Made by a program: the position numbers and the translations under genes. The notes beneath the pieces were generated by a model. That model made no database searches, had not been told where the DNA came from, and was given only the letters and a program-made list of their open reading frames with translations. From positions 7,744 through 71,743 of the forward strand of contig JACRKZ010000102.1 of NCBI GenBank assembly GCA_016235455.1: DNA of 64,000 bases. The letters are read 5' to 3'. Positions 5,541-55,183 of the stretch are shown here, in pieces. Position 1 is the stretch's first letter; each line of letters opens with the position of its first letter. Origin of the DNA: Armatimonadota bacterium. GTDB lineage: Bacteria > Armatimonadota > UBA10988.

Positions 5541-7037
5541 CTACGGCCGCGTCTTCGGCGTGTTGCGGCACCACTCGATCTTCGCCGCCAGCTCGGCGAC
5601 GATCTCGGGGTGGTCGGCGGCGACGTTGCGGGTCTCGCCGATGTCGTCCTTCAGGTTGTACAGCGTGCCCGGCTTGGGATGGCCCGGTCCGACGATCAGC
5701 TTCCAGTCGCCGCGCTTGAGCGCCAGCGGGTTGCCGCCGTTGTTCTGGCTGAGCAGCCACTCGCGGCCGGTCCGGCTCTCGCCCAGCAGCGCGGGCAGCA
5801 CGTTGAGGCTGTCGGGCGCGTCGTTGTCGGCCAGCTTGGCGCCGACCAGCGCCGACAGGCTGGCACAGAAGTCCACCTGGCTGACCACGGCATCGCTCAC
5901 GCCCGGCTTGACCCGCGCCGGCCAGCGCACGATGAACGGCTCGCGTGTGCCGCCCTCAAGCACCGTGTACTTGCCGCCGCGGAACGGGCCGGCGGGCTTG
6001 TGGTCGCCCAGCTTCTCCACGGCGCCGTCGCGGTAGCCATCGTCCAGCACGGGGCCGTTGTCCGAAGACAGGATGACCAGCGTGTTGTCGCTCAGACCGA
6101 GCCGCTCGAGCGCGTCCAGCAGCGTGCCCACGCAGGCGTCGAACTCGACGATGGCGTCGCCGCGCGGGCCCATGGTCGTCGCGCCCTGGAAGCGGGGATG
6201 CGGCACGCGCGGCACATGGATGTCGTGTGTGGCGAAGTACAGGAAGAACGGCTTGGTCCGGTTGCGCTCCATGAACTCGACGCCCTTCGCGGTGAAGGTG
6301 TCGGCCATGTCCTCGTCCTTCCACTGCGCCGCGCGACCGCCTCTGTACCAGCCGATGCGGCCGATGCCGTTAACCACGCCCATGTTGTGGCCGGCGCTCC
6401 AGTCCATCTTGAGGTGGTCGCGCTCGCTGACGCCGGTCGGCTCGCCGGGGAACGGCTGCTTGTAGCTGACCTGCAGCGGGTCGTCGGCGACCAGACCCAC
6501 GACCCGCTGGTTCTCGACGAACACGCAGGGCACGCGGTCGCCGGTGGCGGCCATGACGAACGAGTAGTCGAAGCCGACCTCACGCGGGCCGGGCTTGATC
6601 TCGGCGTTCCAGTCCAGTGTCTGGCCGTCGCCCAGGCCCAGATGCCACTTGCCCACGGCCCCGGTGGCGTAGCCGGCCTGTTTGAGCAGCGCCGGCAGGT
6701 TGGAGCGGTCGGTGGGCACAATGAGTGCGGCGTCGCCCGGCAGCACGCCGGTACCGCGGCGCCGGAAGGCATACTCGCCCGACAGCAGCGAGTAGCGCGA
6801 CGGCGTGCAGGTGGCCGCGGGACAGTGGCCGGCAGTGAAACGCAGACCTTGGCGCGCCAGACGGTCGATGTTCGGCGTCTTGACCGCGACCGCGCCGTTA
6901 CAGCCCACATCGCCATAGCCCAGGTCGTCGGCGTACAGGATGACGATGTTCGGCCTCGTCTCGGCGCTGTGCAGGCGCGAAGCCAGCAGCGTGGCGGCGC
7001 TCAGACCGGCTGCGCCAAGGAAGTTGCGGCGGTCCAT
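5541..7037 (-). CDS. Arylsulfatase, Tat signal
   Basis: Track ORF 5541-7058 trimmed to ATG 7037 (MDRRNFLGAAGLSAATLLA). Motifs YADDLGYGDVGCNG, TCTPSRYSLLSGEY (CxPSR), SSDNGP. Confidence 0.9.
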   Translation of the reverse strand: MDRRNFLGAAGLSAATLLASRLHSAETRPNIVILYADDLGYGDVGCNGAVAVKTPNIDRLARQGLRFTAGHCPAATCTPSRYSLLSGEYAFRRRGTGVLPGDAALIVPTDRSNLPALLKQAGYATGAVGKWHLGLGDGQTLDWNAEIKPGPREVGFDYSFVMAATGDRVPCVFVENQRVVGLVADDPLQVSYKQPFPGEPTGVSERDHLKMDWSAGHNMGVVNGIGRIGWYRGGRAAQWKDEDMADTFTAKGVEFMERNRTKPFFLYFATHDIHVPRVPHPRFQGATTMGPRGDAIVEFDACVGTLLDALERLGLSDNTLVILSSDNGPVLDDGYRDGAVEKLGDHKPAGPFRGGKYTVLEGGTREPFIVRWPARVKPGVSDAVVSQVDFCASLSALVGAKLADNDAPDSLNVLPALLGESRTGREWLLSQNNGGNPLALKRGDWKLIVGPGHPKPGTLYNLKDDIGETRNVAADHPEIVAELAAKIEWCRNTPKTRP

Positions 7038-24190: not shown

Positions 24191-24753
24191 TCCGTGTCAA
24201 ACCAGCACCAGAACCGCCGTCGTTCGACGAGCGAGTTCGCCAACCCGGCTTGGCGCAGTTGCCTGAGCTGAAGCCGCACTGGCGCCGCTGTCTACCCGAC
24301 CTGCTCGCCGCGTACCAGCACATCTGCGCCTACTCGTGCTTCTACATCCATCCGGTCGCCGGCGCGCGTACCGTCGAGCACTTCGGGCCGAAGTCGGCGT
24401 CGCCCGAGCTGGCCTACGAATGGTCGAACTACCGCCTGGTGTGCAGCCTGATGAACAGCCGCAAACAGGCCTTCGACGATGTCCTCGACCCGTTTGAGAT
24501 CGAGAACGGGTGGTTCGTGCTCGACTTCGTGAATTTTGAGGTCCATCCGGACGTTGAGCTGGCCATTGACCACGCCGCCATCCAGGCCACAATCGACCGG
24601 CTCGGACTCAACGACGCGCCCTGCCCGAGCACGCGCCAGCAGGAGTACGAGATGTATGAGCGCGGCGACGCCTCCTGGCGGCATCTCTGTCGCGTCAGCC
24701 CCTTCGTCGCCGCCGAAGTGGAGCGCCAAGGCCTGCGCCGGGCCGGCGACTGA
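24187..24753 (+). CDS. PtuB-like HNH nuclease-family protein
   Basis: The GTG start overlaps the PtuA-like stop (GTGA, 24187-24190). Core ICAYSCFYIHPVAGARTVEHFGPKSASPELAYEWSNYRLVCSLMNSRKQ resembles the CxYCE...EHxxPKS...W.N...C..CNxxK pattern of the HNH partner found next to such ATPases. Confidence 0.65.
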   Translation: MIRVKPAPEPPSFDERVRQPGLAQLPELKPHWRRCLPDLLAAYQHICAYSCFYIHPVAGARTVEHFGPKSASPELAYEWSNYRLVCSLMNSRKQAFDDVLDPFEIENGWFVLDFVNFEVHPDVELAIDHAAIQATIDRLGLNDAPCPSTRQQEYEMYERGDASWRHLCRVSPFVAAEVERQGLRRAGD

Positions 24754-24769
24754 TTCGTCGGAGACACCC

Positions 24770-25897
24770 ATGCCCAGGCTCAAATGGACCCGCCACGCCG
24801 ACCTGGCCATCTCGCGCGGCTGCTCCGTGCGGCGCGAGGAATACCTCGACCACATGACCTTCGCCGCCAATGCTCGGCCGCTGTTCACCGAGATCTTCGG
24901 CCCGCTCATTGGCCTCAAGGAGGAATGGGAGGAGCAGGGCGCCAGCCCCGAGGAACTCGACTTCTCCGCCTTTCGCTACCGCTGCCCGCTGACCGCGGGC
25001 CTGCCGATCAACACCGGTTGGCTCGGCGGGCCGGCGCCCGAGACGCTGTCCGAGACCGACGACTTCCTGACCTACCGCGATGCCATGGGCCGCACCATGA
25101 AGCTGGCCAAGGGCGTCTCGACGCTGGCGCTGCCCATGGACTGGCCCGTGCGCGGCATGGACGACTGGCTGGCCATCCGGCACCACTACGCCTTCGATGA
25201 GGCTCGTTTCGGCGCCGGCTGGGAGCAGATGGCCCGTGACCACCTGGCCGCCGGCCGCGCCGTGACCGTGTCCCTGCCCGGCGGCTACGACACGTCGCGG
25301 CAGCTCATGGGCGACGAGGCGGCCTGCCTGGCGTTTGCCGACCAGCCGGAGCTGATCGCCGACATCCTGCAGACCGTCGGCGCGATGGTCCAGCGGGTGC
25401 TCGACCGCGTGTCGGCGGCGGTGCAGGTAGACATCCTCAGTGTGCACGAGGACATGGCTGGCCGGAGCGGGCCGATGGTCGGGCCGCGGCAGGTGCGTGA
25501 GTTCATCGCACCCTACTACCGCCGCGTCTGGGACATGCTCGCCGAGCGGGGCGCGCGTCTGTTCGACCAGGATTCCGATGGCAACATGAACCCGGTCATC
25601 GACGCCTTCCTCGACGCGGGCGTCAACGTCATGCACCCCATGGAGCCCGCCGCCGGCATGGACATCGTGCAGGTGCGCCAGCGCTATGGCCGCCGACTGG
25701 CGTTCTATGGCGGCATCGACAAGCATGTGCTGCGCCGCTCGCACGAGGAGATCGACGCCGAGTTGGCGTACCGGGTCCCGCCGCTGCTGGCCTCGGGCGG
25801 GTGCGTGTTCGCGCTGGACCACCGCATTCCCAACGGCACGCCGCTGGGCAACTATCGGTACTATGTGCAGCGGATGTGGGAGATGCTGGGAGATTAG
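24770..25897 (+). CDS. Uroporphyrinogen-decarboxylase (URO-D)-like family protein
   Basis: Track ORF 24536-25897 trimmed to ATG 24770 (GGAGA upstream), giving MPRLKWTRHAD. The URO-D/MtaA-like C-terminal half includes DSDGNMNPVIDAFLDAGVNVMHPMEP. Confidence 0.6.
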   Translation: MPRLKWTRHADLAISRGCSVRREEYLDHMTFAANARPLFTEIFGPLIGLKEEWEEQGASPEELDFSAFRYRCPLTAGLPINTGWLGGPAPETLSETDDFLTYRDAMGRTMKLAKGVSTLALPMDWPVRGMDDWLAIRHHYAFDEARFGAGWEQMARDHLAAGRAVTVSLPGGYDTSRQLMGDEAACLAFADQPELIADILQTVGAMVQRVLDRVSAAVQVDILSVHEDMAGRSGPMVGPRQVREFIAPYYRRVWDMLAERGARLFDQDSDGNMNPVIDAFLDAGVNVMHPMEPAAGMDIVQVRQRYGRRLAFYGGIDKHVLRRSHEEIDAELAYRVPPLLASGGCVFALDHRIPNGTPLGNYRYYVQRMWEMLGD

Positions 25898-30772: not shown

Positions 30773-30841
30773 ATCCACAGATGACACAGATGCCACAGAT
30801 CACGGACCCGACAATCTGTGTAATCTGTGTAATCTGTGGAT
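30773..30841. repeat. CACAGAT-heptamer hairpin repeat, copy A (69 bp)
   Basis: ATCCACAGATGACACAGATGCCACAGATCAC-loop-CAATCTGTGTAATCTGTGTAATCTGTGGAT. Each arm holds 3 heptamers at about 9-bp spacing. Starts 18 nt after the stop at 30755. Confidence 0.9.
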
Positions 30842-31567: not shown

Positions 31568-31585
31568 CGCTCCGGCCGGGCTATG

Positions 31586-31654
31586 ATCCACAGATTATGA
31601 AGATTACACAGATTGGCAGGTCCGCAATCTGTGTGATCTGCGTAATCTGTGGAT
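31586..31654. repeat. CACAGAT-heptamer hairpin repeat, copy B (69 bp)
   Basis: ATCCACAGATTATGAAGATTACACAGATTG-loop-CAATCTGTGTGATCTGCGTAATCTGTGGAT. Sits between convergent genes, and its last base is the first base of the stop codon at 31654-31656. Confidence 0.9.
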
Positions 31655-32025
31655 TATGACTTCGGCTTCTTGTCGGCCAGTTCGGCCAGCCGTAGCGTGA
31701 TGACCTTCTCCACGAGTTCCTCGGGCAAGGGCTCGTCGGGCGGGAAGCGGATGGTGCCCTCGCTGGTCGAGTAGCCGGCCAGGTCGTCGGCCAGCGACTT
31801 GATCACCGCGCGGCTCATGGGATAGAGCGCGCAGTGGTGCTTGGCGGCGCCGAAGCAGACCAGCAGCCGGCCCTGCCAGCGGAAGGCGGGCAGTTGATAG
31901 CTGATGCCCTCGGTCACCTCGGGCACCAGCTCACTCACCGTCGCTCGCAGGTGTTGCAGCGTGCGGCGTTTGTCGCTGGGCAGCGTGTCCAGATAGCCGT
32001 CGATGGGGCTGGGTGCGTCGATCAT
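31654..32025 (-). CDS. DUF1801 (YdhG-like) domain protein
   Basis: 123 aa. IDGYLDTLPSDKRRTLQHLRATV...ISYQLPAFRWQGRLLVCFGAAKHHCALYP is a typical DUF1801 pattern. Confidence 0.7.
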   Translation of the reverse strand: MIDAPSPIDGYLDTLPSDKRRTLQHLRATVSELVPEVTEGISYQLPAFRWQGRLLVCFGAAKHHCALYPMSRAVIKSLADDLAGYSTSEGTIRFPPDEPLPEELVEKVITLRLAELADKKPKS

Positions 32026-46292: not shown

Positions 46293-46321
46293 GAACCGGA
46301 TCATGACATCCGGTGTCTTCA
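46293..46321 (+). promoter_or_regulatory. Candidate ECF-type promoter (GAAC-N19-TCTTCA) upstream of the ECF sigma gene
   Basis: GAAC at 46293-46296 and TCTTCA at 46316-46321; compare the RpoE/AlgU-type GAACTT-N16/17-TCTGA. The spacer contains the inverted repeat CCGGAT-catgac-ATCCGG. Use of this promoter implies the ATG 46337 start. Confidence 0.25.
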
Positions 46322-46336
46322 CTTCGGAAACGGTCG

Positions 46337-46918
46337 ATGCACGCCGAGCAGAATCCCACAACCCGAGACGCGGCTGCGTTCGAGGCGGCTTGTGCGCAGT
46401 GGCGTGGCGAGCTGCAGCGGCTGGCGCTGGGCATTCTGCGCCAACCCGACACGGCCGACGACGTGGTGCAGGAGGCGTTGCTGCGGCTGTGGACCGCCGA
46501 CCCGCCACCATCGACCCAGGGCACGCGGTCCTGGCTGCTCAGGGTCACCACCAACCTGGCGCTCAACGCGCTGCGCAGCGCGCGCCGCCGGCCGGCCGAC
46601 CCGGTCGATCCCGCGAGGCTGGGTCTGGCCCTGGCCGCGGGCGCGGGCCTGGCGGCCGGCAGTCAGCCGCCGGCCACGCCGCATCAGGCATTGGTACGCG
46701 CCGAGACCGACGGCCTGTACCGTCGCGCCCTGGCCGACCTGCCGCCTGCTCAGCGGCAGATCGTGTCGCTGGTCTACGAATCCGAGATGCGCCTGCGCGA
46801 TGTGGCGGAGGCGCTCGGGGTGCCCGAGGGCACCGTCAAGTCGCGGCTGCACGCCGCCCGCGCCAAACTGTCGCGCCGCTGGCGCGAACTGGCCCCCGAC
46901 TGGGAGGATGAGTCATGA
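46337..46918 (+). CDS. ECF (group 4) sigma-70 family RNA polymerase sigma factor
   Basis: ATG 46337 (the track ORF starts at GTG 46313). Region 2: ADDVVQEALLRLW, SWLLRVTTNLALNALRSARRRP. Region 4: LPPAQRQIVSLVYESEMRLRDVAEALGVPEGTVKSRLHAARAKL. Confidence 0.9.
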   Translation: MHAEQNPTTRDAAAFEAACAQWRGELQRLALGILRQPDTADDVVQEALLRLWTADPPPSTQGTRSWLLRVTTNLALNALRSARRRPADPVDPARLGLALAAGAGLAAGSQPPATPHQALVRAETDGLYRRALADLPPAQRQIVSLVYESEMRLRDVAEALGVPEGTVKSRLHAARAKLSRRWRELAPDWEDES

Positions 46919-49881
46919 ACCCCATTCCGCCAACCCCCTGGCACGCCGCCTCGTTTGACCACTGCCTGCGCGGCAGCCTCCCGCGGCTTCTTGCCGAGCG
47001 ACTGCCGTTGAGCGGTTACCACGTCGCGCCCGGCGAGGACGGCCAGGTGCGCGTGACGGTGACCGTCGACGCGGCCGCCGCCGTCTACCACCTGCCGGCG
47101 CCCACGCCGGACGGCGTTTTCCACACGCCGCGCGGACCGCGCGTGGTCACGCCGTTGGTGGCCCATGACGATCTGGCCACGGCGGCGGTGGCCTGCGTGG
47201 GCGAGCAGTTGGCCACCATCGTCGAAACGCGCCTGGGCGTCGCGCCGGCCGACATCCCCTGGGACGAGGCGCTGCTGCGCGCCTGGCTGCCGCTGGACGG
47301 TTGGCTGGCCGAGTTGCTGGCCACCGCCGCGCCGCTGGACGAGCGCAATCTGCTGGCCCGCCTGACGCATCTGCGGCGCATCCGCGTGACCGCCATCGGG
47401 CCCGACGGACCGATCCTGCTGCCCGGTCACTGGGGCCGGGTCTGTCCCGTGGAGTCGCCCGAGGGCGAGAACCTGGGCCGGGTGCTGGTGCTGGCGCGCG
47501 GCGCCGGCATCGCCCACGGCCGTATCCTGCCCGCCGGCGCCGAGCCCGCGGAGCAGCTCGGACCTGGCGCGGCCTGCATCCCGTTCCTGCATCACGACGA
47601 CGGCGTACGCGCGCTGATGGGCGCCAACATGATGCGCCAGTGGCTGCCACCCGAGGCGCCGGAGCCGGCGCTGGTGGTCACCGGCCTGGAGCCCGGTGAG
47701 CCGGCGCTGTGGTGCGGGCGCAACCTGCTCACCGGCTACCTGGATGTGGGCGCCGACACCCACGAGGATGCGCTGGTGGTCAGTGCCTCGGCCGCCTCCC
47801 GCCTGGGCCAGCAGGCGCCGCTGGAGCCCGGTGACAAGCTCAGCAACCGCCACGGCCAGAAAGGCGTGGTCAGCGCGATCTGGCCCGACGCGGCCATGCC
47901 GCGGCTGGCCGACGGCACGCCACTCGACCTCGTCGTCAGCCATCTCGGCGTGCAGACCAGGCTCAACCTCGGCCAACTGCTGGAGGCCGTCGCCGGCCGG
48001 CTGGCCCGCGCGGAAGGCCAGGCCGTGGCAGCGCCACCCTACAGCGGGCCGAGCGTCGACGACCTGCGCCAGCGGCTGCGCGCCGCAGGCCTGCCCGAGG
48101 ACGGCATGGAGCGGCTGAGCCTCGACGGCGCGGCGCTGGAACTGCCGTCGACGGTCGGCTACGTGTACTGGGGCAAGCTCTACTTGCGCGCGGCGCCGGC
48201 CCTGCACAGCCAGCCCGCGGGCCATGCCGGCGAGCGCATGGGGTGGCTGGACCACGCTTGCGTGCGCGAGAGCGGCTGCCGCGCCATCCCGGCCGAATGG
48301 GGCGGTCTGGGCTCGGTGGCACGGCTGGCACCGGGCGAACTCGCCGAGCTGCTGGCCGCCGGCGAGCCGCCACCACTGGGTCCGCCGACGCCCTGGCTGG
48401 CGGCGCTGACGCGGCGCCTGGCGGTGCTCGGCATCGGCGTCGAGATCGACAGTGCCGGCCTGCATTTCGGGCTGCGTGAGCCGGACGACGCGCTGGAACT
48501 GGCCGAGCCGGTGCCGCATCCGTGGCACCGCGACCTGCTGCTGACCCGCCTGGGGCCATGGAGCGGCGACGCCTGGGAGGCCACCCTGGCCGCTAACGCC
48601 AGGTTGGCCCGGCTGCGGGCCGAGGCCGCGCCCGACGCCTTGCTGCAGCCCGCGCGCGGCGCGCTGGCCAGCGCCATCGAGGCGCTGGCGCGGCGGCTGG
48701 TGCGCCGCGAGCACCTGTGCGCCGGCGACCGCGTGGCCTACAGCGGTCGTGCGGTCATCGCGCCCGGCGGCGACCTGTGCTGGGACCAGGTCGGCCTGCC
48801 GCGCGACCTGGCGGAGCCGTTGTTCGCGCCGCTGCTGGCCCGGAGCGGCGAGACGGACTTGGCGGCGGTGATGGCGCGGCACTGGCTGTTGGTGACCCGC
48901 GCGCCGGCCGTGGCGGCCTCCGCTCATGTGGCGCTGCGGCCGGTGCTGGTGCCCGACCGCGTCATCCGGCTGCATGCGCTGACGCTGATGATGCTCAACG
49001 CCGACTTTGACGGTGATCAGGTGGCGGTGATGCTGCCGCTCACCGCCGCCACGCAGGCCGAGGCGGCGCAGCGGCTGAGCATCGGCGCCCACCTGGAGCG
49101 CGATTCAGGCTTGCTGGGCTCGCTGCTGCCGCCCATGTCGGCACGCTGGGGCCTGGCCTGGCTCAGCCTGACCACCGCCGGCCGGCAGCAGATCGCCCAC
49201 CTGCTGGGCTTCGAGCTGCCCGACGATGGCCACTTGACCCGCGCCGGCCTGCTGGAAGCCGCGGCGCAGATACGGCTGCGCGACGGCGTGGACGGCCTGA
49301 TGGGCACTCTCGACGCGTTGACCCGGCTGGGCTTCGCCGCGGCCCGGCGTAGCGGCGCGTCGCTGGCGCCGTTCGCCGGCACCACGCGCGCCCTGCCGCC
49401 GCAGCCGCAAGACGATGATCGCGTGGCCTGGGCGGCCTACGCCGAGCAACTCGTCGAGTGCCTGCGGGCCGTGGAGGACTATGCCAACCCCGACCTCGGG
49501 CCGCAGATCCTCGCCGTCAAGTCCGGCGCGCGCGGTACGTGGCGCTTCTTCGAGCGGATGCTCGGCGGCCAGCTCCTACCCGATGGCGCGGCCGGGCTGA
49601 CCCCGCAGAGGCATTCGCAGATCGAGGGCCTGAGCCCCGAGGAGTACCGCCTGCGCCTGCACTCTGGCCGTAGCGCGCTGGCCATGTGGCTCCAGAGCTG
49701 GACGGCCACCTGCACCAGCATCCGCGAGGGCGCCGGCCCGCATGGCTTCGGCGTGCTGGCGCGCGCCTGCCACTCGGCGCAGCCGGGCGTCATCTTCGCC
49801 CGCGCCGCGCTCACCGGCGAGTGCGACCCCCTGGCTGACGCCGCCAGCCGCCTGTTCGTCGGCGTCGCGGACCGCGGGTAG
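46915..49881 (+). CDS. Miniature collinear RpoB-RpoC (beta-beta') fusion: single-polypeptide two-barrel RNA-polymerase-like protein (988 aa)
   Basis: The ATG overlaps the sigma gene's stop (ATGA, 46915-46918), with GGGAGGA 6 nt upstream. Beta motifs in order: THLRRIRVTAIGPDG, GRVCPVESPEGENLG, FLHHDDGVRALMGANMMRQ, THEDAL, GDKLSNRHGQKG, DGTPLDLVVSHLGVQTRLNLGQLLE, VGYVYWGKL, RLAVLGIGVEID. Beta' motifs in order: ELAEPVPHPW, GDRVAYSGRAVI, NADFDGDQVAVMLPL, SGARG, EGLSPEEYRLRLHSGRSALA. Confidence 0.85.
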   Translation: MNPIPPTPWHAASFDHCLRGSLPRLLAERLPLSGYHVAPGEDGQVRVTVTVDAAAAVYHLPAPTPDGVFHTPRGPRVVTPLVAHDDLATAAVACVGEQLATIVETRLGVAPADIPWDEALLRAWLPLDGWLAELLATAAPLDERNLLARLTHLRRIRVTAIGPDGPILLPGHWGRVCPVESPEGENLGRVLVLARGAGIAHGRILPAGAEPAEQLGPGAACIPFLHHDDGVRALMGANMMRQWLPPEAPEPALVVTGLEPGEPALWCGRNLLTGYLDVGADTHEDALVVSASAASRLGQQAPLEPGDKLSNRHGQKGVVSAIWPDAAMPRLADGTPLDLVVSHLGVQTRLNLGQLLEAVAGRLARAEGQAVAAPPYSGPSVDDLRQRLRAAGLPEDGMERLSLDGAALELPSTVGYVYWGKLYLRAAPALHSQPAGHAGERMGWLDHACVRESGCRAIPAEWGGLGSVARLAPGELAELLAAGEPPPLGPPTPWLAALTRRLAVLGIGVEIDSAGLHFGLREPDDALELAEPVPHPWHRDLLLTRLGPWSGDAWEATLAANARLARLRAEAAPDALLQPARGALASAIEALARRLVRREHLCAGDRVAYSGRAVIAPGGDLCWDQVGLPRDLAEPLFAPLLARSGETDLAAVMARHWLLVTRAPAVAASAHVALRPVLVPDRVIRLHALTLMMLNADFDGDQVAVMLPLTAATQAEAAQRLSIGAHLERDSGLLGSLLPPMSARWGLAWLSLTTAGRQQIAHLLGFELPDDGHLTRAGLLEAAAQIRLRDGVDGLMGTLDALTRLGFAAARRSGASLAPFAGTTRALPPQPQDDDRVAWAAYAEQLVECLRAVEDYANPDLGPQILAVKSGARGTWRFFERMLGGQLLPDGAAGLTPQRHSQIEGLSPEEYRLRLHSGRSALAMWLQSWTATCTSIREGAGPHGFGVLARACHSAQPGVIFARAALTGECDPLADAASRLFVGVADRG

Positions 49882-49895
49882 TCATGCCTGAATCA

Positions 49896-49975
49896 GATCC
49901 ACAGATTACGCAGGTTGCACAGACTGCTCAGAGGCCAGTCCGAGCGATCTGTGTCATCTGTGTGATCTGTGGATC
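49896..49975. repeat. CACAGAT-heptamer hairpin repeat, copy C (80 bp)
   Basis: GATCCACAGATTACGCAGGTTGCACAGACTGC-loop-GCGATCTGTGTCATCTGTGTGATCTGTGGATC. Sits between the convergent stops at 49881 and 49989. Confidence 0.9.
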
Positions 49976-49988
49976 CTCAGGGAGATGG

Positions 49989-51038
49989 CTAGCGATTGGC
50001 GCACCAGGTGCGCAGTGTGGCCAGGATGCGCCGTGCGTCGTCCAGTGGGCGGCCGCCCATGTTGAACAGGAACCGCGTGTCGGGCCGCGCCAGGTCGAGC
50101 ATTTCGCGCACGCCGGCCTCGTCGCGCCAGGCGACCATGTGCACCGTCTCGCCGGCGAACAGATCGAGCGCGGGCTTGGGGCCGGGCGGATACTGGAACA
50201 CGCGGTTGAGCCCGCGCAGCCGCGGCACCCGCGCGAACAGCGGGTAGTGCGCGTCGGCCCGAGCGCAGCAGTGCATCCACATGCCGCCGTAGCGCTCGCT
50301 CATGGCCACCAGGCTGGGCAGGCAGAACTGCTCGAACATGGCCGGCGACAGGCTGCCCGTTTCGTCCTCGGACAGTGAGCAGCCCAGCGCCGGCGGCCCG
50401 TAGGCGGCGCCGGGGCAATGGATGGCGTTGTGGCCAGGGAACGCGCGGCGGAAGTCGTCGAGGAAGCCGGTGAGCAGCGCGTAGGTCTTGTCCACCAGTG
50501 CCAGCACCGCCTCGGGCGTGTCCACCATGGCGATGAACATCTCCTCCTTGTTCCAGATCAGCGCGGCAATGTCGAACGGACTCTGGATGTCCGGGCCGGT
50601 GATCGGCGCGTCAGGCCCCAGTTCGGCCTGCACCAGCTCCGCCAGCTCCCACCAGCGCGCCAACCCGCGACCGGCCGACCAGTCGGGCGTCGGCAAGGCA
50701 TCGGCCTCGGCGGCGGCATGCACGAACGGCAGCGCGGCGGCGTTCGAATCCCGGAACGGCACCACGCGGCAGCCAAAGGCCTCGGCGAAAACGCCGGTGT
50801 GCGTGGTCATCGGCGCCACCGGCACGGTGTCGCAGCCCAGCGCCTCGGTCTGCGCCAGCCAGGCGCGGTACTGAGCAACGATGCCCGGCACCCAATCGCT
50901 CACCGGCCGGTCGGACACCGTCACATCGCCCGGGCTGTCGACGAGGCCGGGCGGATCGAAGGTGATGGCATGGCCGGGGAATGGGCCGCTGAACAGATCG
51001 ATCTGGTACTGACGATTGCGCGCAATGCGATCGGGCAT
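49989..51038 (-). CDS. Uroporphyrinogen-decarboxylase (URO-D)-like family protein (second paralogue)
   Basis: Track ORF 49989-51251 trimmed to ATG 51038 (GGGAGG upstream), giving MPDRIARNRQYQIDLFSG. URO-D-like layout; the C-terminal half aligns loosely with the 24770-25897 product. Confidence 0.55.
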   Translation of the reverse strand: MPDRIARNRQYQIDLFSGPFPGHAITFDPPGLVDSPGDVTVSDRPVSDWVPGIVAQYRAWLAQTEALGCDTVPVAPMTTHTGVFAEAFGCRVVPFRDSNAAALPFVHAAAEADALPTPDWSAGRGLARWWELAELVQAELGPDAPITGPDIQSPFDIAALIWNKEEMFIAMVDTPEAVLALVDKTYALLTGFLDDFRRAFPGHNAIHCPGAAYGPPALGCSLSEDETGSLSPAMFEQFCLPSLVAMSERYGGMWMHCCARADAHYPLFARVPRLRGLNRVFQYPPGPKPALDLFAGETVHMVAWRDEAGVREMLDLARPDTRFLFNMGGRPLDDARRILATLRTWCANR

Positions 51039-51114
51039 GGCCGACCTCCCAGCCGCGTAGCATAGCGCGTTTGGGGCGCGGTTAGGTACAATCCCCCGAC
51101 TGGGAGCCTGTGCC

Positions 51115-52149
51115 ATGGCCGCTCGCTGGCTGCGCTGTCTGTTGTTGGTCCTGCCCCTCGCCGCCGGAGCCGCTCCGGCTCGCACCGAGCATGTCAGCGA
51201 TGGCGCCGAACTGATGGCCGCCGTGGCGCGCGGTGGCGGCGAACGCAGCATCGTGCTCGACGCGGGTACCTATGAGATAAGTGGGACTCTGAGCTTCGAG
51301 CGCGTGAACCAGGTAAGCGTGCTGGGCAGCGGCTGGAATACGGTCATTCGCAAGACCGGGCCCGGCCCGGCCATGGCCTTCGCCGACTGCGGCTTCTGCC
51401 TGGTGCGCGACCTGCTGATCGTCGGTGACGGCAAGGCTCAGGCCGGCATCGTCTTTGGCGGCCAGAGCAGCTCCAACACCGTCGACAAGTGCCGACTGGC
51501 CGACTTCCTGCTGAGCGGCATCCGCTTCCAGGGCGAGGCCGCCCGCCCCATGTCGTCCAACGTGGTGCGCGACTGCCACTTCGTCGACAACGCTGCCGCG
51601 CAGCTCTACAGCGAGTACAACAACGACTACGCGATCAGCGGCTGCCAGTTTGGCGCGCACCACTCGACCCCCGCCGCCGGCGCGCAGTTGTTGCACTCGT
51701 CGGCCGGCAACTACACCGGTAACTTCCATTGGGGCAACCAGAACGCGCTACTGCTGGGGCCCGGCAGCAACTTCAACCGCATCCAGGCCAACCGCCTGGA
51801 GGAGAGCCAGCGCGAGGCGCTGATCATCGGCTCACCCGAGCCCAGCCCCGCCTGGTCGGGTCATTGCAGCCTGAACATCATCACGGGCAACACCTTCCAC
51901 ACCAACTCCAAGCAAGAGAAGGGCCGCTACGACGCCATCGCCGCCTACGACGCGGTGGACACGACGTTCACCTCGAACCAGGTGTTCTCGTGGGACTCCG
52001 ACCACTTCCGCCACCGCGCGGCGTTGGCGCTGGGTCGCGGCTGTGGCACGTGGATCGTCCGGGACAACATCCTGCGGCACCACACCGGGCCGGCGCTCGT
52101 GTTCGATGCCGGTTCGGGGCATCTGGTGAAGGACAACCTGGGCCAGTAG
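51115..52149 (+). CDS. Secreted right-handed beta-helix (pectate-lyase-fold) protein
   Basis: GGGAG upstream. Signal MAARWLRCLLLVLPLAAGAAPA. Repeats: NTVDKCRLADFLLSGIRFQG, NVVRDCHFVDNAAAQL, NFNRIQANRLEES, NIITGNTFHTNS. Confidence 0.75.
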   Translation: MAARWLRCLLLVLPLAAGAAPARTEHVSDGAELMAAVARGGGERSIVLDAGTYEISGTLSFERVNQVSVLGSGWNTVIRKTGPGPAMAFADCGFCLVRDLLIVGDGKAQAGIVFGGQSSSNTVDKCRLADFLLSGIRFQGEAARPMSSNVVRDCHFVDNAAAQLYSEYNNDYAISGCQFGAHHSTPAAGAQLLHSSAGNYTGNFHWGNQNALLLGPGSNFNRIQANRLEESQREALIIGSPEPSPAWSGHCSLNIITGNTFHTNSKQEKGRYDAIAAYDAVDTTFTSNQVFSWDSDHFRHRAALALGRGCGTWIVRDNILRHHTGPALVFDAGSGHLVKDNLGQ

Positions 52150-52399
52150 GCGGGGGAACCAGCTCGATCACGCTGGATTGCCACGGGCCGGCTATGCCTT
52201 GAGGGCGCCGCCACGGGCTCCATGTTCCTGTCAAGGCGATTCCGCTCGCGAACGAGCGCCCGCTGACGATCGCCGCGCCCGGTCGAGTCCTCGTATTGCG
52301 ACATTGTGATCTCCTTCGGTTTACTCCCGGGGGTATTCAGGGTATGAAGCGAAAATAGACCAGGCGTGTCCGATTATGCGGCGCGCCCCGGAGGACGAT

Positions 52400-53656
52400 A
52401 TGGAACTTCGCGGATCCGTGTCAGGACGAGGGCGTACCCTCACTGCTCGACCAACGACGGTGGTGCTGGGGCTGATGGTGGGTGTGCTGCCCTGGCTGAC
52501 CAGCTGCGGTAGCGCCAGCGATGCCGGTGGCAACCCACTGGCCGCGGCCGGCCCGACGAGTGAAGGCGGCCGGGCGGTCGCCTCGAACCCGTATGTGGTC
52601 ATCGGCTGGAACGATCTGGGCATGCACTGCATGAACCAGGACTTCTCGAATCTGATGATCCTGCCGCCGTACAACACACTGCACGCGCAGGTCATCCGGC
52701 GCGGTGAGGAGCCGCAGATCGTCAGCAGCGGCGTGACGGTGAACTACAGCGTGCCGGGCAACACGCGCTCGAGTACCAAGACGAACTTCTGGCAGTACGC
52801 CAAGGCCCTGACCGGCCTGACCTTGGCCAACGATGTCGGCTTGACGGGCCACCGGCTGGCCGGGACCATGACCGCGACGAGCAATCGAGACTGGAGCGTG
52901 ACCGGCGTGCCCATCACTCCGGTGACCGATGTGGGCGCGCTGAACGCCTACCAGATGGCCAGCATCAGTGTGGCTAGCCGGGGTACCACGGTGGCCAACA
53001 CACAGGCGGTGATACCAGTCTCGTGGGAGATAAGCTGCAATCTGTGTCACAACACGCCGGGCATCTCGCCCGATGTGGACATCCTGCGCAAGCACGACAG
53101 CCTGCACGGCACCCAACTGGTCAAGCAGCGGCCGGTGAACTGCGCCAAGTGCCATGCCGAGCCGAACCTGGGCTCGACCGGCGCGCCTGGCGTCAAGAGC
53201 CTGTCGGCCGCCATGCACGGCTCACACGCCAAGCGCATGGCCTCCGCCAAGCTGACCAACGAATGCTACGCCTGTCACCCTGGCGTCAAGACCAACTGCC
53301 AGCGTGACGTGCACAAAGCCAAGGGCATCACCTGCACCGCCTGCCACGGCTCCATGGCCACGGTGGCCGCGCCGAGTAGGCGCCCGTGGGTCGATGAGCC
53401 GAGCTGCGGCAGCTGCCACAAGCGCGCCGGGTTCGAGTTCGAGCAGCCTGGCAAGCTGTTCCGCGACAGCAAGGGCCATCATGGGGTCCAGTGCGCGGCT
53501 TGCCACGGCAGCCCGCACGCCGTCGGGCCCGCTGTGAACGCGGCCGACAACGCCCAGGCCATCGCCCTGCAAGGTCATGCCGGCCCGATCGACACCTGCA
53601 CGGTCTGCCACACCAAGCGGCCGGACGAGGCGTTCGAGCATCGGCTCGACGACTGA
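52400..53656 (+). CDS. Multihaem (7 x CxxCH) c-type cytochrome lipoprotein
   Basis: ATG 52400 with GGAGGA upstream. Lipobox LPWLTSCGS. Haem-binding motifs: CNLCH, CAKCH, CYACH, CTACH, CGSCH, CAACH, CTVCH. Confidence 0.85.
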   Translation: MELRGSVSGRGRTLTARPTTVVLGLMVGVLPWLTSCGSASDAGGNPLAAAGPTSEGGRAVASNPYVVIGWNDLGMHCMNQDFSNLMILPPYNTLHAQVIRRGEEPQIVSSGVTVNYSVPGNTRSSTKTNFWQYAKALTGLTLANDVGLTGHRLAGTMTATSNRDWSVTGVPITPVTDVGALNAYQMASISVASRGTTVANTQAVIPVSWEISCNLCHNTPGISPDVDILRKHDSLHGTQLVKQRPVNCAKCHAEPNLGSTGAPGVKSLSAAMHGSHAKRMASAKLTNECYACHPGVKTNCQRDVHKAKGITCTACHGSMATVAAPSRRPWVDEPSCGSCHKRAGFEFEQPGKLFRDSKGHHGVQCAACHGSPHAVGPAVNAADNAQAIALQGHAGPIDTCTVCHTKRPDEAFEHRLDD

Positions 53657-53684
53657 CGCAATAGCTCATCACCGAGCGCACGGG

Positions 53685-53726
53685 GAGCACAGGGATCGGC
53701 CCGTTCCGGGTTCGCGCCCTGTGCTC
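53685..53726 (+). terminator. Hairpin between convergent cytochrome and serpin genes (candidate bidirectional terminator)
   Basis: GAGCACAGGG (53685-53694) pairs with CCCTGTGCTC (53717-53726). 22-nt structured loop, followed by TCTGTGTGCTT. Starts 29 nt after the stop at 53656. Confidence 0.45.
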
Positions 53727-53759
53727 TCTGTGTGCTTGGTGACGATGCGGCGGCGCGCA

Positions 53760-55043
53760 CTAAGCCGACGGGTCGGCCACGCGGCCCAGGAACAGCACCG
53801 CGCCGGTGGGCCGGTCGCGCAGCACCAGCAGGAACGGCCGGTCGATGGTCAGCGTGACGTGGTCACCGGGTGCCGAGGTGGCGCCGATGACCACCGCCGT
53901 GGCCGCGGCGGCTTCGGTGCCGGTCTCGTCGATACGCACGTACGCCTTGTGCAGCACATCGCTGATGGCCAGGTCGCGCCGGCCGTCGATGCCGCTCAGG
54001 TCGGCCAGGGATCCGTCGAAGGCGTCGGTCATGCCCAGCGACTGGAGCGCGGCACTGAGCGGCAGGCTGCTCTCCACCTTGAACTTGGGTAGCGCCAACG
54101 AGACGTCGGTGTTTCTCAACCCACCGAGGATCGCCGTCAGCCGCGCCGCGTCGAGCGCGTTCTCCACCGCGGCGAAGCGGCCGGCGTCGGGCACGAGCAG
54201 CAGCAAGGACAACTGCTCGCCGGCGTAGGGCAGTTCCACCGCGCGCCAGCCGTCGCCGGCCGCATACGGCAGGGCTTGGCGCTGGTTCATGAACGTCACG
54301 GTGACGCTGACGCCAGCCAGCGTGGTGAAGGAGCGGTCGGCGGTCTGCGCCACCTCGAACGGCGTGGCCCAGGGCGCCAGGAAGTAGATGGCGTTGGTCA
54401 GCACCAGCCGCGTCAGCGTCGTCACCGCGCCCGGCGGCAGGAGATTGTTGATGCGGTCGGCGGTCTGGTCGCTGACCCACTGGTTGATGGTGCCGCGCGC
54501 CGCCTCGGCGTTGGCCTGGTAGTCCACCACCCTCATGCCCGCGCCGTAGTTGACCGCCAGCGTGTCCAGGAAGGCCGACTGGAACGTCTCGCCGCGCTGG
54601 CCCCAGATGGCGTTGGCCACGCGCAGCCGGAAGCCCTGGTTGCCGTTTTGCCCCGCCTCGCGCGCGGCCAGCGCCAGGTCGAGCGCGTCGAACGCCGGGT
54701 GCAGCCGCGCCGCGGGCAGGTCGTAGCCGAGCGCGGCGGCCATCTGCGTCGCGGTGTTGCCAGCGGCGCCGGCATAGGCCATGGCCAAGGCCAGCGACAC
54801 GCTGTAGGGTGAGAAGAAGAGGTTGCCCGAGCGGCTCTGGGTGCCATACAGGTTGAGTGCAAAGCGCGTGTTGCCCGCCACCAGCGCGGCCAGATCGCCA
54901 GCGGGCACAACGGGTGACGTGTTGCGCGGCAGATCCGAGGCGATGCGCGACGAGTCGCCCGACTTGCCGCTCGAGCCGCAGCCGCCCAAAGCGGCATAGC
55001 CGGATGCCAGCGCCAGCATCCGCAGGAGAGAACGCCTGTCCAT
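53760..55043 (-). CDS. Serpin (serine protease inhibitor) lipoprotein
   Basis: Trimmed to ATG 55043 (GGGAG upstream). MDRRSLLRMLALASGYAALGGCGS (lipobox). NLFFSPYSVSLALAMAYAGA, LVLTNAIYFLAPW. Reactive-centre hinge: IDETGTEAAAATAVVIGATS...FTIDRPFLLVLRD. Confidence 0.85.
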   Translation of the reverse strand: MDRRSLLRMLALASGYAALGGCGSSGKSGDSSRIASDLPRNTSPVVPAGDLAALVAGNTRFALNLYGTQSRSGNLFFSPYSVSLALAMAYAGAAGNTATQMAAALGYDLPAARLHPAFDALDLALAAREAGQNGNQGFRLRVANAIWGQRGETFQSAFLDTLAVNYGAGMRVVDYQANAEAARGTINQWVSDQTADRINNLLPPGAVTTLTRLVLTNAIYFLAPWATPFEVAQTADRSFTTLAGVSVTVTFMNQRQALPYAAGDGWRAVELPYAGEQLSLLLLVPDAGRFAAVENALDAARLTAILGGLRNTDVSLALPKFKVESSLPLSAALQSLGMTDAFDGSLADLSGIDGRRDLAISDVLHKAYVRIDETGTEAAAATAVVIGATSAPGDHVTLTIDRPFLLVLRDRPTGAVLFLGRVADPSA

Positions 55044-55183
55044 GATCGACTCCCGCCAGATAGGATGCCACTGCAACGCGGCGACGGCCATGGGTGTTCA
55101 AGACGATGGTACGCGCCACGGGGCGATTATCCTCAGAGAACAGTAGTCGCCCCTCTGACTTCCCGGGGTAATCGCTGTCCGCC

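What the first reader, a model, noticed from the sequence alone, without database searches (positions are those of the whole stretch)
30773..30841. Family of long hairpin repeats built from CACAGAT heptamers at gene 3' ends (copies at 30773-30841, 31586-31654, 49896-49975)
The three elements share the termini (G)ATCCACAGAT...ATCTGTGGAT(C). In each, one arm holds three copies of CACAGAT (or 1-2-nt variants) spaced about 9 bp apart, and the other arm holds three inverted copies (ATCTGTG). The arms are separated by a 9-20-nt GC-rich loop. All three lie immediately after stop codons, two of them between convergent genes, and none has a U-tract. The roughly one-helical-turn periodicity looks iteron-like (protein-binding). 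The long imperfect stem could act as a bidirectional terminator or RNA-stabilising structure, or be a MITE/REP-type mobile repeat. The elements generate the spurious ITQITQI / ICVICVICG peptides in the ORF track.
Basis: seen in the sequence. Interest (0 to 1): 0.55.

Follow-up and report, generated by a model that had tools for sequence, protein, structure and literature searches.

The report
Heptamer-array hairpin repeats linked to GxxExxY nuclease
The three hairpins are real, gene-free copies of a repeat found in at least ten bacterial phyla; its full-length form brackets a small nuclease-like gene (GxxExxY), which points to an apparently undescribed mobile-element system.

Summary
There are three 69-80 bp palindromes (30773-30841, 31586-31654, 49896-49975). 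Each arm holds three CACAGAT-type heptamers at a 9-nt period. All three lie 14-18 nt after stop codons and none has a U-tract.

The repeat is not private to this Armatimonadota genome. The outermost unit is always C-CACAGAT. The 2-3 nt outside it vary by lineage but stay complementary. Spacers between heptamers do not covary, and fold stability shows no bias towards the transcribed strand. Only about 20% of copies have a T-run. So the heptamer sequence is what is conserved, not an RNA structure or a classical terminator.

The key result is a longer form: the same inverted arms, 390-430 nt apart, bracket a 125-aa GxxExxY (PD-(D/E)XK, Cas4-like) ORF. I saw this in independently sampled metagenomic loci and in isolates (Bacteroides, Bernardetia, Sphingomonas, Treponema). 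The unit sequence co-varies with lineage. Filled and empty sites exist for both the ORF form and the hairpin-only form.

Best reading: the window copies are ORF-less, MITE/REPIN-like derivatives. No literature or Rfam description was found. The nuclease's role is inferred, not shown.

The parts
30773..30841 (.). Element 1. It is an ORF-less heptamer-array palindrome: left arm 30773-30800 (ATC-CACAGAT-GA-CACAGAT-GC-CACAGAT), loop 30801-30813, right arm 30814-30841 (ATCTGTG-TA-ATCTGTG-TA-ATCTGTG-GAT). It sits in the tandem gap between the NPCBM/melibiase-like gene (stop 30755) and D-lyxose isomerase (ATG 30875).
   Evidence: (I3)
31583..31657 (.). Element 2. Its arms are 31583-31615 and 31625-31657 (core 31586-31654), with a 9-nt loop. 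One unit per arm is degenerate. It sits in the convergent gap between D-lyxose isomerase (stop 31567) and the DUF1801 gene (31654-32025, minus strand).
   Evidence: (I2)
49896..49975 (.). Element 3. Its arms are 49896-49932 and 49939-49975. The left arm is degenerate (CACAGAT, CGCAGGT, CACAGAC); the right arm has three exact ATCTGTG units. Its termini are GATCCACAGAT...ATCTGTGGATC. It sits in the convergent gap between the RNAP beta/beta'-like ORF (stop 49881) and the URO-D-like gene (stop 49989).
   Evidence: (I1)

Best explanation
The three elements are ORF-less members of a cross-phylum family of palindromic insertion modules. Each end of a module is an array of about three 9-nt units: a CACAGAT-type heptamer plus a 2-nt spacer, with the outermost unit C-CACAGAT.

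The full-length form is about 440 bp. In it, the two inverted arrays bracket a single 125-aa GxxExxY gene (TIGR04256 / PF13366), which has a Cas4/RecB-like PD-(D/E)XK nuclease fold and intact E...D...(E/D)xK residues. The short hairpins, including those in this window, are the same arms joined by a 6-20-nt loop. This is the relation of a MITE to its IS, or of a REPIN to its RAYT.

What is shown:
- the family exists and is widely distributed;
- arm-ORF-arm is a conserved architecture;
- the arm unit sequence co-varies with lineage;
- ORF-carrying and ORF-less copies on one contig have identical arms;
- elements occur nested inside each other;
- filled and empty orthologous sites exist for both forms.

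What is inferred:
- the heptamers are binding sites for the GxxExxY protein;
- that nuclease cuts at or near the arms or the extruded hairpin, and the module is copied or moved to new intergenic sites, with hairpin-only copies mobilised in trans or left behind when the ORF is lost by recombination between arms;
- sitting just after stop codons, the very stable stems may incidentally block 3' exonucleases or impede read-through. That is a side effect, not the reason the sequence is conserved.
For: (1) Family and breadth. Nearly all hits carry internal CACAGAT/CGCAGAT units at a 9-10-nt period in both arms.

(2) Sequence rather than pairing is conserved. The outermost unit is always C-CACAGAT. 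The outer 3 nt covary (148 Watson-Crick pairs against 108.5 in shuffles). The spacers do not (68 vs 61; 59 vs 52). There is no strand bias relative to transcription: the sense strand folds better in 26 cases and the antisense in 29, Wilcoxon p = 0.47.

(3) Link to GxxExxY.
- In the hairpin-selected loci, GxxExxY is the fourth most recurrent protein cluster (7 loci), always next to or inside elements, and no transposase family recurs.
- In L072 the ORF exactly fills the loop of a 29-nt, 100%-complementary arm pair. An ORF-less copy 2 kb away has identical arms, spacers included.
- Five GxxExxY homologues chosen without regard to repeats (P0182, P0126, P0203, P0141, P0136) all carry the arms.
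- More distant homologues (30-55% identity) on isolate replicons show the same architecture with lineage-specific units. Bacteroides finegoldii has 30-nt arms, 90% complementary, unit CACAGAG. Bernardetia has 28-nt arms. Sphingomonas has 25-nt arms, 92% complementary, unit CGCGAAG. Treponema has a 16-nt inverted repeat. Gemmatirosa has a CGCGGAT hairpin.

(4) Discrete insertion.
- The roughly 437-bp Sphingomonas parapaucimobilis module sits between fabD and fabG. S. paeninsulae has a 32-nt spacer there.
- An ORF-less hairpin is present in L173 and absent from the orthologous gap in L212.
- Nested copies occur in L017, L064 and L249/L250.

(6) GxxExxY ORFs point the same way as their neighbours in nearly all loci and have no room for a promoter of their own.
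Against: - No GxxExxY gene lies in this 64-kb window. I could not check the rest of the genome.
- No transposition, binding or cleavage has been observed.
- No target-site duplication could be defined, because the intergenic flanks were too diverged.
- The metagenomic GxxExxY sample came from the best hits to queries that were themselves hairpin-associated, which is a bias. It is only partly offset by the eight PLSDB isolates. Of those, one (Persicobacter) shows no arms and one (Prevotella) has different repeats.
- In 50-kb stretches of Gemmatirosa and Bernardetia, ORF-less copies are rare. Amplification is therefore lineage-specific.
- The association is equally compatible with the ORF targeting pre-existing hairpins.
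- The gene calls used for the context statistics are crude ORF calls.
Confidence: 0.6

Rival explanations
1. The hairpins are pre-existing targets (landing pads), not derivatives. On this view the GxxExxY gene is a free-standing homing-endonuclease-like cassette. It recognises the heptamer palindrome and is copied into or beside it, and the hairpins themselves spread or persist by some other means.
For: Loops are recurrent insertion points: other hairpins in L017, L064 and L249/250; a roughly 230-nt unrelated insert in L019; a roughly 150-nt insert in L117; and the ORF in L072. The 'three-arm' forms (F-ORF-F-loop-R in L286 and L308; F-loop-R-ORF-R in L309 and L306) look like an ORF plus one arm integrated at an arm of an existing hairpin. 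The direct repeat extends about 11 nt beyond the arm.
Against: The model does not explain how ORF-less hairpins become multi-copy. The two-arm forms in Bacteroides, Bernardetia and Sphingomonas sit in gaps that are simple short spacers in relatives, with no hairpin at the empty site in S. paeninsulae. In L308 the loop of the hairpin part begins with the 5' end of the ORF, as expected of a deletion derivative.
Confidence: 0.2
2. The elements are host-selected RNA elements. Stable 3' hairpins would act as factor-independent or bidirectional terminators, or as mRNA 3'-end protectors, and the sequence similarity would be secondary.
For: The elements lie 3-30 nt after stop codons in most loci, and divergent gaps are under-represented: 11 of 82 classified, against about 25% expected. 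The stems are very stable. The flank logo shows an A-rich left side and a T-rich right side in mid-GC genomes.
Against: - The same heptamer is conserved in at least ten phyla, whereas a structural role needs only pairing.
- The spacers do not covary.
- G-U versus A-C asymmetry does not follow the transcribed strand.
- A T-run of 4 or more occurs in only about 20% of copies, against 14% in a wrong-polarity control, and in none of the window copies.
- The same arms bracket an ORF.
- No Rfam family matches; only sub-threshold miRNA-like hairpin noise was found.
Confidence: 0.12
3. The elements are arrays of binding sites for a universal host DNA-binding protein, with DnaA as the obvious candidate because the termini resemble the DnaA box TTATCCACA. 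They would act as titration or regulatory sites.
For: The terminal ATCCACA matches 7 of 9 DnaA-box positions. TT precedes it in 24 of 121 left ends and 33 of 119 right ends. The same 10-mer pattern also retrieved true DnaA-box clusters in a phage group.
Against: With an unbiased pattern, the 2-3 nt before C-CACAGAT vary by lineage (ATC, AAC, CAC, GTC, AGC, TCC), so most subfamilies have no DnaA box. Internal units match only the CACA part. The related units CACAGAG, CGCGAAG and CGCGGAT are not DnaA boxes. The phage DnaA-box clusters lack the heptamer arrays.
Confidence: 0.03

Closest known systems
REP / REPIN elements with their RAYT (TnpA-REP, HUH Y1) transposase
   Same: Both are short extragenic palindromes in many copies, often just after genes. 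In both, inverted doublets form long hairpins, and a single small nuclease-type gene is flanked by the same repeats in inverted orientation. In both, the repeat sequence co-varies with the protein lineage.
   Different: The associated protein is a PD-(D/E)XK (Cas4-like) GxxExxY protein, not an HUH tyrosine transposase. The arms are tandem 9-nt units rather than a single imperfect palindrome with a 5' GTAG. The core heptamer is conserved across many phyla, whereas REP sequences are species-specific (the last point is from my own knowledge). The ORF lies inside the palindrome loop.
MITEs derived from IS elements (e.g. Correia/NEMIS, ERIC, RUP, Nezha)
   Same: Both are non-coding, under 100-150 bp, with terminal inverted repeats identical to those of a longer coding relative. 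Both are dispersed in intergenic DNA, occur nested, and show presence/absence polymorphism.
   Different: There is no DDE transposase and no target-site duplication could be defined. The coding relative is only about 440 bp and carries a 125-aa nuclease-fold protein of unknown activity. The TIRs are internally repetitive heptamer arrays.
Free-standing homing endonuclease genes, and ORF-bearing intervening sequences in 23S rRNA (ORF in the loop of a long stem)
   Same: A small selfish-looking nuclease gene is inserted between co-oriented host genes without a promoter of its own. The ORF is bracketed by a long stem. This comparison rests on my own knowledge and was not tested here.
   Different: No recognition site or homing has been shown. 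Hairpin-only copies far outnumber ORF copies. The elements are not located in rRNA or introns.
Integron attC sites / gene cassettes
   Same: Both are imperfect palindromes of 57-141 bp after ORFs, and single genes are sometimes flanked by two elements, as with the lyxose isomerase in this window and in L037, L121 and L221.
   Different: There are no R''/R' core sites (RYYYAAC...GTTRRRY), no integrase nearby and no cassette arrays. The flanked genes include large glycosidases.
Plasmid iterons / intrinsic terminators
   Same: Like iterons, they are directly repeated short units with roughly one-turn spacing. Like terminators, they are stable stems after stop codons.
   Different: There is no origin or Rep gene. 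They are dispersed, chromosomal and inverted. There is no U-tract in the window, and only about 20% of copies family-wide have one.

Membership tests
REP/REPIN-RAYT system | Associated RAYT gene (HUH Y1 transposase, Y1_Tnp) flanked by the repeats | tested here: not met
   All-vs-all clustering of ORFs from about 250 hairpin loci found no recurrent transposase family. The recurrent small family is GxxExxY. No such gene lies in the window region that was scanned.
REP/REPIN-RAYT system | Unit is a 20-40-nt imperfect palindrome with a conserved 5' GTAG-type tetranucleotide | tested here: not met
   The arms are tandem 9-nt units (CACAGAT plus 2 nt). There is no GTAG, and a single arm is not itself palindromic.
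REP/REPIN-RAYT system | Extragenic, multi-copy, with inverted doublets forming hairpins | tested here: met
   There are 3 copies in 64 kb, all intergenic.
MITE | Short non-coding element with terminal inverted repeats matching those of a longer coding element | tested here: met
   In L072 the ORF-less copy (5707-5779) and the ORF-carrying copy (3471-3918) have identical 29-nt arms. The arm-ORF-arm architecture recurs in many loci.
MITE | Target-site duplication and a DDE-type transposase in the parent element | tested here: inconclusive
   The filled/empty pairs (L173/L212; L320/L323) are too diverged at the junctions to call a TSD. The parent ORF is a PD-(D/E)XK fold, not DDE.
Intrinsic (Rho-independent) terminator | GC-rich stem immediately followed by a U-tract | tested here: not met
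   None of the three window copies has a T-run. Family-wide, a T-run of 4 or more within 18 nt occurs in 49 of 250 copies, against 36 of 250 in the wrong-polarity control.
Structured RNA family (Rfam) | Match to a curated covariance model; strand-specific structure conservation | tested here: not met
   There were no hits at gathering thresholds in the window. In seven loci the only hit at gathering threshold was one tRNA, unrelated to the elements. At E <= 10 only sub-threshold miRNA-precursor hits appeared. There is no sense-strand bias.
DnaA-box cluster | Multiple TTATCCACA-type 9-mers | tested here: not met
   The terminal trinucleotide varies by lineage. Internal units match only CACA. 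True DnaA-box clusters retrieved by the same 10-mers form a separate class.
Integron attC | R''/R' core sites (RYYYAAC / GTTRRRY) and an integron integrase or cassette array | tested here: not met
   The termini are NNC-CACAGAT...ATCTGTG-GNN. No integrase appears among the recurrent neighbours.
GxxExxY (TIGR04256 / PF13366 PDDEXK_3)-associated palindromic module (proposed here, not a curated family) | Inverted arms of about three 9-nt CRCRGRK-type units with the outermost unit C-CACAGAT or its lineage equivalent | tested here: met
   All three window elements hit the arm HMM at E = 3e-10 to 8e-6. Their arms are the same as those flanking GxxExxY ORFs in L072, L306 and L309.
GxxExxY-associated palindromic module (proposed here) | A GxxExxY gene with matching arms in the same genome | not testable with these tools
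   None is present in the 64-kb window. The rest of the Armatimonadota MAG (contig 72.6 kb) could not be retrieved.

The most novel reading that the evidence does not exclude
The arm-GxxExxY-arm module would be a previously unrecognised class of minimal mobile or homing element. It is about 440 bp and carries a 125-aa Cas4-like PD-(D/E)XK nuclease bracketed by inverted arrays of three 9-nt binding units. The protein family comprises 16,000-37,000 clusters at 50% identity. The module would seed REPIN-like hairpin-only repeats in the intergenic DNA of at least ten bacterial phyla, and the nuclease would recognise the heptamer arrays directly.
Probability: 0.4. Interest if true: 0.85.

Novelty: new variant of a known kind. 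Interest (0 to 1): 0.75.

Why it matters
GxxExxY / PDDEXK_3 is a very large protein family. It has 37,244 clusters at 50% identity with E <= 1e-3. It has no assigned function: the 2012 PD-(D/E)XK survey lists it as 'Unknown' with multiple transfers between divisions (PMC3424549).

A fixed architecture with heptamer-array arms gives that family a concrete, testable substrate. It would also explain three things: its patchy multi-copy distribution, its tendency to sit on tiny contigs, and the origin of a hairpin repeat that interrupts operons and breaks assemblies in soil, freshwater, gut and wastewater bacteria.

If the nuclease mobilises the arms, this is a REP/RAYT-like system built on a different enzyme fold, and possibly one of the smallest autonomous bacterial elements.

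For annotation, the hairpins produce spurious ITQITQ/ICVICV ORFs and should be masked.

Tried and rejected
- **DnaA-box hypothesis for the termini.** Rejected after the unbiased pattern showed lineage-variable terminal trinucleotides.
- **RNA-level selection.** A sense versus antisense comparison of MFE and G-U counts in 64 elements of known transcription direction showed no bias.
- **Spacer covariation.** My first impression of compensatory spacers was anecdotal. A count over 56 elements with three units per arm shows no excess over shuffles.
- **Canonical terminator.** The logo suggested A/T tracts, but run counts show only a weak excess.
- **Rfam.** Nothing was found at gathering or permissive thresholds.
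- **Literature.** Exact strings, heptamer plus keywords, GxxExxY, PDDEXK_3, PF13366 and TIGR04256 returned no description of the repeat or of the association.
- **Transposase or RAYT near the elements.** None recurs.
- **Empty-site comparison for the window's own elements.** I tried this through lyxose-isomerase homologues. The nearest are at most 78% identical and not syntenic.
- **GxxExxY in viral contigs.** No confirmed hits.
- **PDB sequence relatives of GxxExxY.** None.
- **Hairpin at 53666-53745.** I considered it as a decayed fourth copy, but the arm HMM does not detect it.
- **Solo arms as ends of larger IS elements.** Most are degenerate hairpins, nested copies or arms next to GxxExxY. 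No transposase lies inward of them.

Full report
**1. Checking the observation**

CACAGAT occurs 17 times in the window against 4.5 +/- 2.2 in dinucleotide-preserving shuffles, and no shuffle out of 100 reached 17. Fourteen of the 17 occurrences lie in the three elements. The 10-mer ATCCACAGAT and its complement mark both ends of each element.

The three elements are the three longest inverted repeats of the window. Their arms are 28, 33 and 37 nt long and 89, 88 and 78% complementary, with 13, 9 and 6 nt between them. Either strand folds far better than shuffles, at z = -5.0 to -9.6.

Gene context was worked out from ORFs, codon-position GC and Pfam:
- Element 1 lies 17 nt after the stop of an NPCBM/melibiase-like gene and 33 nt before the start of a co-directional D-lyxose isomerase.
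- Element 2 lies 18 nt after the isomerase stop and abuts the stop of a convergent DUF1801 gene.
- Element 3 lies 14 nt after the stop of ORF 46915-49881 and 13 nt before the stop of a convergent URO-D-like gene.

No T-run follows any of them. So the description is correct, with one amendment: element 1 sits in a tandem gap, not a convergent one. An HMM built from 171 arms found elsewhere detects only these six arms in the window. The window is about 70% G+C. The identical lyxose isomerase is named in NCBI as coming from an Armatimonadetes MAG.

**2. The repeat is a cross-phylum family**

I scanned one genome per species for ATCCACAGAT-N36-66-ATCTGTGGAT. Hits came from these groups:
- Acidobacteriota (many Pyrinomonadaceae and Terriglobia)
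- Chloroflexota
- Planctomycetota
- Verrucomicrobiota
- Lentisphaerota
- Chromatiaceae and other Gammaproteobacteria
- Asticcacaulis
- 'Deltaproteobacteria'
- Treponema
- Flavobacteriales

The pattern fixed only the termini. Even so, nearly every hit has internal CACAGAT/CGCAGAT units at a 9-nt period in both arms, or 10 nt in Chromatiaceae. A handful of hits without internal units (L011, L069, L075) are chance matches.

It showed that the outermost unit is always C-CACAGAT. The 2-3 nt outside it differ by lineage but remain complementary: ATC/GAT, AAC/GTT, CAC/GTG, GTC/GAC, AGC/GCT, TCC/GGA.

A few copies occur in high-GC viral or prophage contigs. Rfam has nothing at gathering or permissive thresholds. 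Full-text searches for the strings found nothing relevant.

**3. What is conserved**

- *Strand bias.* In 64 elements whose direction of transcription is unambiguous, the sense strand folds better in 26 and the antisense in 29 (p = 0.47). G-U pairs number 66 versus 74. There is no sign of selection on one RNA strand.
- *Covariation.* In 56 elements with three units per arm, the spacer dinucleotides pair no more often than after shuffling partners (68 vs 61; 59 vs 52). The outer three bases do covary (148 vs 108.5). So the heptamers pair because they are the same word inverted. Their sequence is what is kept, not base pairing as such.
- *Terminator signature.* A flank logo looked like an A-tract, hairpin, T-tract arrangement. 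Counting runs shows that only about 20% of copies have four or more T within 18 nt, against 14% in a wrong-polarity control.
- *Gene context.* In crude gene calls the contexts are tandem 53, convergent 18 and divergent 11. Elements are typically 3-30 nt after a stop codon.
- *DnaA box.* The terminal resemblance to TTATCCACA was tested and dropped. It holds only for the ATC subfamily. The pattern also pulled out a separate class of true DnaA-box clusters in a phage group.

**4. Signs of gain, loss and nesting**

L173 carries a copy in a gap that, in the orthologous 85%-identical region of L212, is an 18-nt spacer.

Complete copies lie inside the loops of other copies in L017, L064 and L249/L250. 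Other inserts occupy loops in L019 and L117.

**5. The partner gene**

In L072 the two arms are 29 nt long and 100% complementary, but 390 nt apart. The interval is exactly filled by a 128-aa ORF. This ORF matches NCBIfam TIGR04256 'GxxExxY protein' at E = 6e-42.

A phmmer search of all ORFs in the fetched loci found the family in seven loci, always beside or inside elements. It is the fourth most recurrent protein cluster, after ABC ATPases, histidine kinases and a TPR family. No transposase recurs.

For a sample not selected by the repeat, I took GxxExxY homologues from the protein database and fetched contigs for proteins chosen only by contig number or length. Five independent ones all carry the arms: P0182, P0126, P0203, P0141 and P0136. 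In L286 and L308 the ATG lies inside the third heptamer (CGCAGATGA), and the stop abuts the next arm.

More distant homologues (30-55% identity) on replicons of cultured bacteria gave the following:

| Organism | Locus | Arms or repeats | Unit | Note |
|---|---|---|---|---|
| Bacteroides finegoldii | L318 | 622-651 / 1064-1093 (30 nt, 90% complementary) | CACAGAG | ORF 680-1054 |
| Bernardetia | L319 | 28 nt, 86% complementary | CACAGAG | |
| Sphingomonas parapaucimobilis | L320 | 25 nt, 92% complementary | CGCGAAG | |
| Treponema saccharophilum | L313 | 16-nt inverted repeat | CACGGAT | |
| Gemmatirosa | L315 | adjacent hairpin | CGCGGAT x3 | |
| Fusobacteria | L316 | direct repeats containing ATCCGTG | | |
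| Prevotella | L317 | other repeats | | |
| Persicobacter | L314 | none seen | | |

The architecture [three 9-nt units]-ORF-[inverted units] is therefore conserved across phyla, and the unit sequence changes with the lineage.

On the L072 contig, an ORF-less copy 2 kb away has arms identical to those of the ORF-carrying one, spacers included.

The Sphingomonas module (about 437 bp) sits between fabD and fabG. S. paeninsulae has a 32-nt spacer at that position, and other alphaproteobacterial replicons show the same short span.

GxxExxY ORFs point the same way as their neighbours in nearly all loci and leave no room for a promoter.

**6. The protein**

E34, D74 and K86 are invariant, with E or D at position 84. 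No solved structure is a sequence relative.

The family is large: 37,244 clusters at 50% identity with E <= 1e-3, and 16,038 with E <= 1e-10. The 2012 survey of the superfamily lists PDDEXK_3 as function unknown, with multiple inter-division transfers (PMC3424549). Only three papers in the library mention GxxExxY, and none in this context.

**7. Interpretation**

*Shown:*
- The window elements belong to a widespread family of inverted heptamer arrays.
- The same arms bracket a nuclease-fold ORF in a conserved, lineage-co-varying architecture.
- Both forms occur as discrete insertions relative to related genomes.
- Copies nest inside one another.

*Inferred:*
- The heptamers are the nuclease's binding sites.
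- The nuclease drives copying or movement.
- The hairpin-only copies are non-autonomous derivatives, by internal deletion or by recombination between arms. The three-arm forms in L286, L308, L309 and L306 would allow such recombination.

The main rival is that hairpins are targets into which the ORF homes. The data do not separate the two cleanly. I give the derivative model 0.6 and the target model 0.2.

A terminator or stabiliser role is possible as a side effect, but it does not explain the conservation.

**8. Limits**

- Both large scans were truncated at 120 rows, so counts and taxon lists are lower bounds.
- Gene calls in the loci are crude ORF calls.
- The metagenomic GxxExxY sample is biased towards relatives of hairpin-associated queries.
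- No GxxExxY gene lies in the window, and the rest of the genome was out of reach.
- No TSD could be defined.
- No experiment bears on binding, cleavage, mobility or transcript ends.

**9. Verdict**

The family is apparently undescribed, and its link to GxxExxY nuclease-like genes makes it a new variant of the REP/RAYT or MITE/IS theme. It comes with a concrete, testable hypothesis for a large family of unknown function.

Noticed in passing
window 46313-49881 (+): This is a two-gene operon. An ECF-type sigma-70 factor (46313-46918; Sigma70_r2 + r4) has a stop that overlaps the start of a 988-aa single-chain protein. That protein carries both RNA polymerase catalytic barrels. Residues 297-436 match bacterial beta 1057-1158 (SNRHGQKGV). 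Residues 598-807 match beta' 339-571, including NADFDGD. So it is a compact beta-beta' fusion-like 'mini-RNAP' with its own sigma, set among glycoside-hydrolase genes. Hairpin element 3 follows its stop.
   Followed up: partly
window 53666-53745: Another long imperfect hairpin lies in a convergent gap between a multihaem cytochrome c gene (52376-53656) and a serpin gene (53760-55091). It has 29-nt arms, 83% complementary. It has CTGTG/CACAG cores at a 9-nt period and TCACC/GGTGA outer bases, but the arm HMM does not detect it. It could be a decayed relative or unrelated.
   Followed up: partly
viral loci L123-L156 (e.g. L123 2082-2162, L126 1214-1317): About 24 related phage contigs (55-58% GC) share a dense cluster of perfect DnaA boxes in both orientations (GTTATCCACAGATTCCTGTGGATAAC...ATCTGTGGATAACT). 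This is probably a phage replication origin or a DnaA-titrating region. It is unrelated to the hairpin family but was retrieved by the same 10-mers.
   Followed up: no
L306 1177-, L309 1299-, L296/L299/L174 downstream of the GxxExxY ORF: In several independent loci, the gene immediately downstream of the GxxExxY module is a large N6/N4 DNA methyltransferase-type gene (N6_N4_Mtase; N-terminus MNKAKLKTYAPQARRDFI... in L174/L296). In L310/L221 a Polbeta nucleotidyltransferase/HepT pair follows. This may indicate a preference for restriction-modification or defence islands.
   Followed up: no
table; L249 400-1900, L250 1-1200: Many GxxExxY proteins sit on very short contigs (0.5-1.5 kb), as expected if the flanking repeats break assemblies. 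L249 and L250 show extreme local density, with 8 and 5 hairpins in 5-6 kb, in nested or tandem composite arrays around one GxxExxY gene.
   Followed up: partly
(P0241, P0242, P0243 and others, 250-295 aa): Some GxxExxY family members are tandem two-domain proteins, with two matched stretches.
   Followed up: no
window 24536-25897 (+) and 49989-51251 (-); L284 3930-4534: Two URO-D-like (uroporphyrinogen decarboxylase family) paralogues lie in the window among glycoside-hydrolase and beta-helix genes. Another Armatimonadota MAG also has a URO-D-like gene convergent with its lyxose isomerase. These are probably methyltransferase-like or sugar-metabolism paralogues rather than haem-synthesis genes.
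   Followed up: no
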